From assembly GCF_006345805.1 (NCBI RefSeq), contig NC_042997.1, forward strand, positions 134,044,001-134,108,000: 64,000 bases of DNA, given 5' to 3'. Positions 28,046 through 29,119 of this stretch are shown one piece after another. The notes beneath the pieces were generated by a model. The model was not told where the DNA came from, made no database searches, and was given only the letters and a program-made list of their open reading frames with translations. Origin of the DNA: Octopus sinensis. Taxonomy: Eukaryota. The position numbers were made by a program, and so were the translations under genes. Positions within the stretch are counted from its first letter, which is position 1, and each line of letters begins with the position of its first letter.

Positions 28046-28099
<54 letters not shown>

Positions 28100-28269
28100 A
28101 CAATTGAGGGTAAAATTAATTAATCAATTTCACCAAGTGTTCAGTATGTAAAAGGACCATTTAAGGCGAATTCAAAATATTACATTATATAATTAGGGCT
28201 TAGTAAAATAAATTACTTTGCCACATACTGAACTTAGTAGAAATAGCAGCCAAAAAAAAATAAAGAAAT

Positions 28270-28332
28270 TTTGAGCTGACGAAAGAAATGCTGATTTTAC
28301 TTGGCTAATCTTGAAACGTTGACGTACTCAAA
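28270..28332 (+). ncRNA. Type I hammerhead ribozyme
   Basis: tttgag-CTGACGA-aaga...tctt-GAAA-cgttgacg-TA-ctcaaa; all core nucleotides present; GUA cleavage triplet at 28324-28326. Confidence 0.85.
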
Positions 28333-28829
28333 CGATCTATGTACTTGTGATATTTTTCTGTATTTACCTCCAAACCTTCGTGAGCTGTCTGGAGTAAACA
28401 TTATCTGAGAGAAATTTTTGTTTAAGTAGTAGAAACGGCTAAAAATTTTTTTGGCTGCTATTTCTACTAAGTTCAGTATGTGGCAAAGTAATTTATTTTA
28501 CTAAGCCCTAATTATATAATGTAATATTTTGAATTCGCCTTAAATGGTCCTTTTACATACTGAACACTTGGTGAAATTGATTAATTAATTTTACCCTCAA
28601 TTGTTGATATTATAATTCATTTCTCTCTGTCATACTGCCTCGGTTCTCGCGGTTAGAATATAATGTTTGCTAGATAGACCACGTGGGTGGAAAAGGAGTG
28701 CAGAAATTTACGCCTGCGCATTTTTAATTTGTTGGCACTGTCAGTTGGAGCTGGTTCATTTGAAGCGACAAGTTCGCAGATAGGTAAGGTTCCTTCTTTT
28801 TAGTGTTTCCAAATTCCAAATTAAGAAAT

Positions 28830-28892
28830 TTTGAGCTGACGAAAGAAATGCTGATTTTACTTGGCTAATCTTGAAATGTTGACGTACTCAAA
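28830..28892 (+). ncRNA. Type I hammerhead ribozyme (second copy, +560 bp)
   Basis: Identical to 28270-28332 except C>T at the first stem III position (U-G wobble). Confidence 0.8.
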
Positions 28893-29082
28893 CGATCTAT
28901 GTACTTGTGATATTTTTCTGTATTTACCTCCAAACCTTCGTGAGCTGTCTGGAGTAAACATTATCTGAGAGAAATTTTCTTTAAGTAGTAGAGACGGCTA
29001 AAACAATTTTTTTGGCTGCTATTTCTACTAAGTTCAGTATGTGGCAAAGTAATTTATTTTTCTAAGCCCTAATTATATAATG

Positions 29083-29119
<37 letters not shown>

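What the first reader, a model, noticed from the sequence alone, without database searches (positions are those of the whole stretch)
28097..29087. Second hammerhead family: 560-bp direct dimer with an inverted 5' arm
Seen: two canonical type I HHRs exactly 560 bp apart, preceded by a ~160-bp perfect inverted copy of downstream unit sequence, with (TA)n on both sides and no ORF. Established: partial tandem plus inverted terminal repeats are characteristic of Penelope-like insertions. Inference: a 560-nt HHR-to-HHR monomer RNA mobilised in trans.
Basis: partly seen in the sequence, partly recalled or inferred. Interest (0 to 1): 0.72.

Follow-up and report, generated by a model that had tools for sequence, protein, structure and literature searches.

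The report
Hammerhead-bearing repeat inserted Penelope-style
This is one copy of a young, protein-free 557-letter repeat that carries a hammerhead-like motif predicted to cut its own RNA and was likely pasted into a TA microsatellite by the enzyme of a Penelope-type retrotransposon; it belongs to a known class that this scan has already met several times in the same genome.

Summary
The layout is real. An inverted arm (28094-28258) is 100% complementary over 165 nt to 28446-28610. It is followed by one full unit (28258-28817) and a 270-nt partial second unit (28818-29088). (TA)n lies on both sides, and the longest open frame is 66 codons. Each unit holds a type I hammerhead-shaped motif, with predicted cuts after 28326 and 28886. 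"Canonical" overstates it: the closing pair of helix II is A-U rather than G-C, no Rfam hammerhead model matches even at E 10, and the copies are too alike to test covariation.

The unit is a dispersed family in this 2.7-Gb animal genome. A 26-mer of the ribozyme's 3' half has 440 matches; a 26-mer near the 3' end has 3,828. Copies end at unit position 270 or 357, and 54 of 57 such ends abut (TA)n. In 36 of 36 head-to-head insertions, one arm ends at 270 and the other at 357. This is the Penelope-like footprint: partial tandem, inverted 5'-truncated copy, "tail" at one end, (TA)n target.

Verdict: a non-LTR retrozyme-type element, a new member of a known kind, likely mobilised in trans. Self-cleavage, circular RNA and the partner element are not shown. 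Earlier notes of this scan describe the same pattern on other DNA of this genome.

The parts
28026..28096 (.). Left (TA)n microsatellite, the target side that abuts the 3' end (unit position 357) of the inverted arm
28094..28258 (-). Inverted, 5'-truncated arm: unit positions 357 down to 189 on the minus strand. It is 100% complementary to 28446-28610, and its 3' end points outward into (TA)n.
28258..28817 (+). Full repeat unit 1 (560 nt here, about 557 in the family), non-coding, 34.5% G+C
28270..28332 (+). Hammerhead-type motif 1 (type I topology); predicted cut after 28326
   Evidence: no Rfam match
28446..28610 (+). Part of unit 1 (unit positions 189-353) that is duplicated in inverted form as the left arm. 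It holds the two alternative 3' end sites of the family: position 270 = 28527 and position 357 = 28614.
28818..29088 (+). Partial unit 2 (unit positions 1-270), ending at the family's 270 site in (TA)n. It shows 5 mismatches in 269 aligned positions against unit 1.
28830..28892 (+). Hammerhead-type motif 2; predicted cut after 28886. C to U at 28877 turns a C-G pair of helix III into U-G.
29087..29118 (.). Right (TA)n microsatellite

Best explanation
The region is one insertion of a young, dispersed, non-coding repeat family of about 557 nt that carries a hammerhead-type motif predicted to self-cleave and that was likely copied into a (TA)n microsatellite by the reverse transcriptase and endonuclease of a Penelope-like element acting in trans; that makes it an animal non-LTR retrozyme-type element.

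Shown:
- The layout of the insertion and the motif in both units.
- The family: copy numbers, fixed 3' ends at unit positions 270 and 357, (TA)n at those ends, variable 5' truncation, arrays of up to four and a half units.
- Head-to-head insertions with 3' ends pointing outward, always one 270 end paired with one 357 end.
- Units of one array share lineage variants and differ mostly by private changes.
- The 560-nt RNA between the two predicted cut sites folds far better than shuffles.
- Intact PLE genes whose copies also end in (TA)n exist in the genome.

Inferred:
- The repeat is transcribed and the motif cuts it, probably as a pair of motifs, because helix III is a near-palindrome that can form a 10-bp duplex between two motifs.
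- The RNA is ligated into a circle.
- Both DNA ends of a cut (TA)n site anneal to AU-rich sites (...UAAUAU at 270, ...UUGAUAU at 357) of one template and prime cDNA synthesis towards its 5' side, for more than one lap in many cases.
- The two cDNAs are then joined head to head.
For: Layout and motif.

Family size:
- 160 matches, 1636 first-look candidates of which 40 were scored.
- 440 matches to a 26-mer of the motif's 3' half, reversed control 0.
- 359 copies keep CUGANGA, spacing, GAAA and helix III exactly.
- 3,828 matches to a 26-mer at unit positions 290-315.

Insertion ends:
- 54 of 57 outer 3' ends abut a TA run of at least 8 nt.
- 23 of 34 loci and 13 of 19 loci are two-armed. All 36 are minus-then-plus, so 3' ends point outward, and all 36 pair a 270-type end with a 357-type end.
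- Whole-lap arrays exist: L002 runs from 272 to 270 over three laps, and the plus arm of L009 runs from 275 to 271.

One template per array:
- Mismatch is 1.18% between tandem units (62 pairs) and 1.36% between opposite arms (60 pairs), against 2.65% between arrays (4808 pairs).
- 111 of 132 array-wide minority states recur in other arrays, whereas 143 of 232 within-array differences are private. 45 of the other 89 lie at five recurrent sites.

RNA:
- The 560-nt monomer folds at -152.1 kcal/mol against -118.6 +/- 5.9 for shuffles; z -5.65; 0 of 100 shuffles as good.
- The hammerhead fold costs -8.3 against an MFE of -8.7. Two motifs co-fold at -28.4 through a 10-bp helix III.
- The motif lies on the strand whose 3' ends abut the target.

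Possible partner:
- 147 GIY-YIG matches over the cut-off among 150 scored of 5029 candidates.
- The 3' end of that element abuts (TA)n in 6 of 6 distinct copies.

Literature:
- PLE insertions form partial tandems with an inverted 5'-truncated copy and a tail at one end; several clades prefer (TA)n (PMC8557442, passages).
- Animal retrozymes are tandem type I hammerhead repeats expressed as circular RNA, and weak helix III motifs cut as dimers (PMC7229834, passages).
- Retrozymes derive from PLE ends (bioRxiv 10.64898/2026.07.22.740005, abstract and Results).
Against: - No Rfam hammerhead model matches.
- The 10.1-11.1 pair is A-U; G-C is the usual pair (recalled, not from a call).
- The 63-nt motif is not unusually stable (z -0.74).
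- The copies are 92-97% alike and the motif barely varies (17 distinct sequences among 60 copies, 37 identical), so there is no covariation test.
- No run on record as RNA holds the repeat, and only contigs could be laid, so there is no evidence of transcription, cutting or circles.
- Insertions starting exactly at the predicted cleavage product number 0, against 4 starting seven bases further on. Cleaved linear monomers have left no footprint.
- One four-unit array carries two changes in the 5' strand of helix II in all four units (C3:105576317-105578070). A template with an impaired motif may therefore still have been copied for several laps.
- No sequence similarity links the unit to the 8 PLE loci examined.
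Confidence: 0.7

Rival explanations
1. It is a Penelope-dependent non-autonomous repeat whose hammerhead-like motif is vestigial or inactive. The RNA template would be a linear read-through or multimeric transcript, and the tandem units would come from template jumps or from copying a multimer, not from a ribozyme-made circle.
For: No Rfam match. A-U at 10.1-11.1. Weak helices. A four-unit array in which every unit carries a damaged helix II. No insertion starts at the cleavage site. PLE clades without canonical hammerheads still multiply well and make tandem and inverted insertions (PMC8557442, passages).
Against: All core bases, the A15.1-U16.1 pair, a permitted cleavage triplet and three helices are in place; chance gives 0.05 such sites per window. 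359 genomic copies keep the boxes exactly. Helix III is a near-palindrome that gives a stable two-motif fold, as described for weak animal hammerheads (PMC7229834, passages). The 36 of 36 pairing of 270 with 357 ends is hard to explain with a long multimer, which offers many sites of each kind.
Confidence: 0.24
2. It is a local DNA-level rearrangement: a satellite born by slippage or unequal crossing-over in a microsatellite, with a fold-back duplication and no RNA intermediate.
For: It sits inside (TA)n, which is prone to slippage. The inverted arm is identical to its partner (0 mismatches in 169) while the tandem units differ (5 in 269). One preprint explains retrozyme arrays by local amplification after insertion (bioRxiv 10.64898/2026.07.22.740005, Discussion passage).
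Against: Hundreds to thousands of dispersed copies on many contigs have the same two 3' ends, variable 5' truncation and (TA)n at the ends. Arms always point outward.
Confidence: 0.03
3. It is a DNA transposon or MITE whose inverted arms are terminal inverted repeats.
For: A 165-nt perfect inverted repeat and AT-rich flanks.
Against: The two outer ends are not inverted copies of each other: one arm extends 87 nt further (357 against 270). The inner break points differ from copy to copy. Many copies have one orientation only and carry tandem units.
Confidence: 0.02

Closest known systems
Metazoan non-LTR retrozymes (Cervera and de la Pena 2020, PMC7229834; Li, Clavereau and Pollet 2026, bioRxiv 10.64898/2026.07.22.740005)
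   Same: Non-coding, AT-rich (34.5% G+C) tandem units of a few hundred bases, each with a type I hammerhead-shaped motif. The family is dispersed and multi-copy, and PLEs are present in the same genome.
   Different: The unit of about 557 nt exceeds the 170-400 nt of the 2020 paper, though it lies inside the 51-972 bp range of the 2026 survey. Helix II is long (30 nt) and closes with A-U, and Rfam does not see the motif. Expression, cutting and circles are not shown here. In the passages I read, neither paper describes fixed 3' ends, (TA)n targets or head-to-head arms for retrozymes. Neither the 2020 paper (a term search of it: 0 occurrences of octopus or cephalopod) nor any other paper found by two library searches (retrozyme + octopus, hammerhead ribozyme + cephalopod) describes retrozymes in cephalopods.
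Insertion architecture of endonuclease-bearing Penelope-like elements (Craig et al. 2021, PMC8557442)
   Same: Partial tandem (pseudo-LTR-like), adjacent inverted 5'-truncated copy, an extension present at one end only, strong 5' truncation, and insertion into (TA)n.
   Different: There is no RT or endonuclease gene in the unit. The one-sided extension is 87 nt rather than 30-40 bp. Arrays reach several full laps of a short unit.
Neptune-type PLE copies of this genome (for example L055:2932-5274)
   Same: Same genome, 3' ends in (TA)n (6 of 6 copies), open 781-aa frame with the CX4CxxC linker that the literature associates with (TA)n targeting.
   Different: No nucleotide similarity to the unit and no Rfam hammerhead at gathering score in 5 such loci. 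The role of partner is only a candidate.

Membership tests
Hammerhead ribozyme, type I | Core boxes CUGANGA and GAAA in order, with helix I open | tested here: met
   CUGACGA at 28276 and 28836; GAAA at 28313 and 28873. 359 genomic copies keep the boxes exactly.
Hammerhead ribozyme, type I | A15.1-U16.1 pair and a cleavage triplet NUH | tested here: met
   A28316-U28325 and GUA, with the cut after 28326.
Hammerhead ribozyme, type I | Three helices around the core | tested here: met
   Helix I 6 bp, helix II 4 bp plus 5 bp, helix III 3 bp. The fold costs -8.3 kcal/mol against an MFE of -8.7. All three helices are weak.
Hammerhead ribozyme, type I | G10.1-C11.1 closing pair of helix II (usual but not universal; recalled) | tested here: not met
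   A28283-U28312.
Hammerhead ribozyme, type I | Match to a curated covariance model (Rfam RF00163 and its relatives) | tested here: not met
   No hammerhead family at gathering score or at E<=10. RF00163 does find 7 other motifs in this genome.
Hammerhead ribozyme, type I | Compensatory changes that keep the helices | tested here: inconclusive
   17 distinct sequences among 60 copies, 44 of 63 columns invariant. There is too little variation to judge.
Hammerhead ribozyme, type I | Site-specific self-cleavage | not testable with these tools
   Only contigs of runs guessed to be RNA were available.
Metazoan non-LTR retrozyme | Non-coding tandem units, each with a type I hammerhead, and low G+C | tested here: met
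   with the caveats on the motif given above.
Metazoan non-LTR retrozyme | Expressed as linear and circular RNA of unit length | not testable with these tools
   No listed holder is on record as RNA. Contigs cannot show RNA ends or circles.
PLE-type insertion (non-autonomous) | Partial tandem plus adjacent inverted 5'-truncated copy | tested here: met
   Seen in the window. 36 of 53 family loci are two-armed.
PLE-type insertion (non-autonomous) | Extension ('tail') at one end only | tested here: met
   In 36 of 36 two-armed insertions one arm ends at 270 and the other at 357, an 87-nt difference.
PLE-type insertion (non-autonomous) | Microsatellite, (TA)n, target preference | tested here: met
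   54 of 57 outer 3' ends abut a TA run.
PLE-type insertion (non-autonomous) | Sequence shared with an autonomous PLE, usually at the 3' end | tested here: not met
   Best match to 8 PLE loci is 17 nt at E 0.007. Only 8 of at least 147 PLE copies were examined.

The most novel reading that the evidence does not exclude
Each two-armed copy records twin-primed reverse transcription of one unit-length RNA. The two DNA ends of a cut (TA)n site anneal to the only two AU-rich landing sites of the same template (positions 270 and 357), which is why the ends are mixed in 36 of 36 cases. Arms of more than one lap mean that this template is a circle. The family would then be a natural read-out of how Penelope-type enzymes create their inverted repeats and one-sided tail, and would show that retrozyme arrays are born at insertion rather than by later unequal crossing-over.
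Probability: 0.3. Interest if true: 0.6.

Novelty: new member of a known kind. Interest (0 to 1): 0.36.

Why it matters
The class (animal non-LTR retrozymes that depend on Penelope-like elements) is known. This locus adds another family in a lineage for which my two library searches found no description.

Its value lies in the insertion junctions. Fixed 3' ends, (TA)n targets, whole-lap arrays and the strict pairing of a 270 end with a 357 end give direct genomic support for mobilisation by PLE machinery. They also make the unsolved PLE integration mechanism testable with a short, abundant, young substrate.

The gain is limited because earlier notes of this scan report the same pattern in other families of this genome, and because ribozyme activity and circular RNA are not shown.

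Tried and rejected
- RNA evidence: no RNA holder is listed. 20 runs of 11 studies and 4 organism labels hold part of the unit, none on record as RNA. Four runs guessed to be RNA were laid, but they are contigs and cannot show ends, strand or circles. Their depth peak at 28448-28618 matches the roughly nine-fold genomic excess of the 3' part (3,828 against 440), which further loci show to be short truncated stubs of the same family.\n- Covariance-model search of the genome for diverged relatives: model R1 was built, but this genome does not accept RNA models. Pattern searches found the same family only.\n- Conservation of the motif against the rest of the unit: 0.991 against 0.973 majority fraction in 27 full units. 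This is too small a difference and comes from a biased sample.\n- Footprint of cleaved linear templates: 0 junctions at unit position 70, 4 at position 77. This gives no support either way for ribozyme activity.\n- Paralogy of the two 3' end modules: local alignment score 33 against 25 +/- 4.6 for shuffles; 36 of 500 shuffles as good. Not significant.\n- tRNA-like parts: none in 27500-29600.\n- Partner by sequence: no similarity to 8 PLE loci, and no Rfam family at gathering score in 5 of them.\n- Locus L083 was fetched with a mistyped coordinate and holds no copy.

Full report
**Observation.**
- A minus-strand arm at 28094-28258 is 100% complementary over 165 nt to 28446-28610.
- A full unit runs from 28258 to 28817.
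- A partial second unit at 28818-29088 repeats unit positions 1-270, in blocks of 99%, 85% and 98% identity at a spacing of 559-561.
- (TA)n lies on both sides.
- The longest stop-free frame in 28094-29088 is 66 codons.
- ARAGORN finds no tRNA-like part in 27500-29600.

**The hammerhead motif.** Both units hold, on the plus strand: TTTGAG / CUGACGA / a 30-nt helix II (4 bp, an internal loop, 5 bp) / GAAA / helix III ACG-UUGA-CGU / GUA, then CUCAAA pairing back to the start. This is a type I layout, with predicted cuts after 28326 and 28886.
- In favour: my descriptor gives 0.05 such sites per shuffled window. The hammerhead fold costs -8.3 kcal/mol against an MFE of -8.7.
- Against 'canonical': the closing pair of helix II is A-U, not G-C. 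The motif folds no better than shuffles (z -0.74). No Rfam hammerhead family matches at gathering score, at E<=10 on 3.5 kb, or on the 96-nt piece alone. RF00163 does find 7 other hammerheads in this genome.
- Helix III reads ACGUUGACGU, a near-palindrome. Two motifs co-fold at -28.4 kcal/mol through a 10-bp intermolecular helix III, against -17.4 for two separate monomers. Weak animal type I hammerheads are reported to cut as dimers (PMC7229834, passages).
- In unit 2, C to U at 28877 changes one pair of helix III to U-G.

**The family.** The window lies at C1:134044001-134108000 of a 2.7-Gb assembly.
- The unit has 160 reported matches from 40 scored of 1636 candidates, at 88-100% identity (92-97% over full-length copies), often in tandem.
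- A 26-mer of the motif's 3' half occurs 440 times with up to 2 mismatches; the reversed control gives 0.
- 359 copies keep both core boxes, the spacing and helix III exactly.
- A 26-mer at unit positions 290-315 occurs 3,828 times. Loci sampled from that list are short 5'-truncated stubs of the same family. This also explains the depth peak over 28448-28618 in the laid contigs.
- The motif hardly varies: 17 distinct sequences among 60 copies, 37 of them identical. Covariation therefore cannot be tested.

**Insertion anatomy.** I examined 34 distinct loci (six overlapping loci were dropped) and 19 more with matches; a twentieth was fetched with a mistyped coordinate.
- Copies end at unit position 270 (...AAUGUAAUAU) or 357 (...GUUGAUAU).
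- 54 of 57 outer 3' ends abut a TA run of at least 8 nt. The three misses are an interrupted copy, a 7-nt run and a copy with an internal gap.
- 5' ends vary.
- 36 of the 53 loci are two-armed. All 36 have their 3' ends pointing outward, and all 36 pair one 270-type end with one 357-type end. L020 shows this only, because an internal gap splits its arm.
- In 11 of these 36, the two inner ends lie within 13 nt of each other.
- Some single-orientation arrays span whole laps, for example L002 from 272 to 270 over three laps.
- The window copy fits the pattern: minus arm 357 to 189, plus arm from about 1 through 560 and on to 270.

**Comparison with Penelope-like elements.** This is the footprint published for these elements: partial tandems, an adjacent inverted 5'-truncated copy, an extension present at one end only, and a (TA)n preference in several clades (PMC8557442, abstract and passages). 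Here the one-sided extension is 87 nt instead of 30-40 bp.

**One template per array.**
- Units of one array differ by 1.18% (62 tandem pairs) and 1.36% (60 opposite-arm pairs), against 2.65% between arrays (4808 pairs).
- Minority states carried by all units of an array are mostly lineage markers: 111 of 132 recur in other arrays.
- Differences within arrays are mostly private: 143 of 232. Of the other 89, 45 lie at five recurrent sites. These include the junction-affected position 264 and position 162, which sits at a CpG.
- In the window, the 5 differences between unit 1 and unit 2 are singletons or lie in an indel-prone run, and the inverted arm shows 0 mismatches in 169.
- Arms and units of one insertion were therefore most likely copied from one template sequence. 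A homogeneous multimer is not excluded.

**RNA.** The 560-nt RNA between the two predicted cuts folds at -152.1 kcal/mol against -118.6 +/- 5.9 for shuffles (z -5.65, 0 of 100 as good). This suits a structured RNA such as the circles reported for retrozymes. Transcription, cutting and circles could not be tested. No listed holder is on record as RNA, and the runs guessed to be RNA are contigs.

I looked for cDNA copies that begin at the ribozyme-made 5' end. There are 0 junctions at unit position 70, against 4 at position 77; this second search also recovered two junctions I had already seen. Cleaved linear monomers have therefore left no footprint, which neither supports nor contradicts a re-ligated circle as template.

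One four-unit array carries two changes in helix II in all four units. This hints that an intact motif may not be required for multi-lap copying.

**Partner.** The genome holds many PLEs: 147 GIY-YIG matches over the cut-off among 150 scored of 5029 candidates.
- Eight fetched loci have open frames of 601-883 aa with the RT motif.
- The 3' end of that family abuts (TA)n in 6 of 6 distinct copies.
- There is no nucleotide similarity to the unit, so this is a candidate partner only.

**What is known.** Animal non-LTR retrozymes are described in PMC7229834 (passages read) and are linked to PLEs in bioRxiv 10.64898/2026.07.22.740005 (abstract, Results part 1 and passages read; its supplements are closed). 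That preprint explains arrays by local amplification after insertion. The junction data here point to arrays made at insertion. Two library searches (retrozyme + octopus; hammerhead ribozyme + cephalopod) found no paper that describes such elements in cephalopods.

Earlier notes of this scan on other DNA of the same genome report other retrozyme families with the same Penelope-type footprint, including 'one arm ending at each of two fixed sites'. They call the genome an octopus, which I did not test.

**Verdict.** The element is a new member of a known kind. The ribozyme is predicted, not shown. The strict 270/357 pairing and the whole-lap arrays are the most useful part of the finding.

Noticed in passing
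window 27764-27891: A 128-nt hairpin, with arms containing CAATTGCAGCGTGGAAGGTGTTTGTAAGCC and its reverse complement, sits between TA runs just left of the finding. The 30-mer has 10,490 matches in the genome (reversed control 0), often as nearby plus/minus pairs, and it also lies next to another copy of the 557-nt family (L016). It is probably a head-to-head stub of another very abundant (TA)n-targeting element.
   Followed up: partly
window 41419-41491 (+): A second hammerhead-shaped site: CUGAAGAG, then a long helix II, then GAAACAUGUGU. Its core and helix III resemble the motifs that Rfam RF00163 finds elsewhere in this genome (L061, L064-L067). Rfam does not report it in the window.
   Followed up: no
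L055:2932-5274 and 3' end near L055:6345 (G000:C1:207472600-207482599): [quoted passage not shown] Its 3' untranslated part holds several repeats of a TGATGACGTC-containing block, and the element ends in (TA)n in 6 of 6 copies. No Rfam hammerhead is found at gathering score.
   Followed up: partly
G000:C3:105576021-105578462: A four-unit array of the family in which every unit has two changes in the 5' strand of helix II (AAGA to ATAC). Either a template with an impaired motif was copied for several laps, or the array was homogenised later.
   Followed up: no
window 28500-28527 and 28585-28614: The two alternative 3' end regions share a short motif: TAATTNATTTTA, then CCCT(C)AATT, then ATAT. 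The overall similarity is not significant (36 of 500 shuffles as good). It could be a landing or recognition signal.
   Followed up: partly
window 28094-28258 vs 28446-28610: The inverted arm is identical to its partner (0 mismatches in 169), while the tandem partial unit differs from unit 1 at 5 of 269 positions. This may be chance (about 3 differences expected) or gene conversion between close inverted repeats.
   Followed up: no
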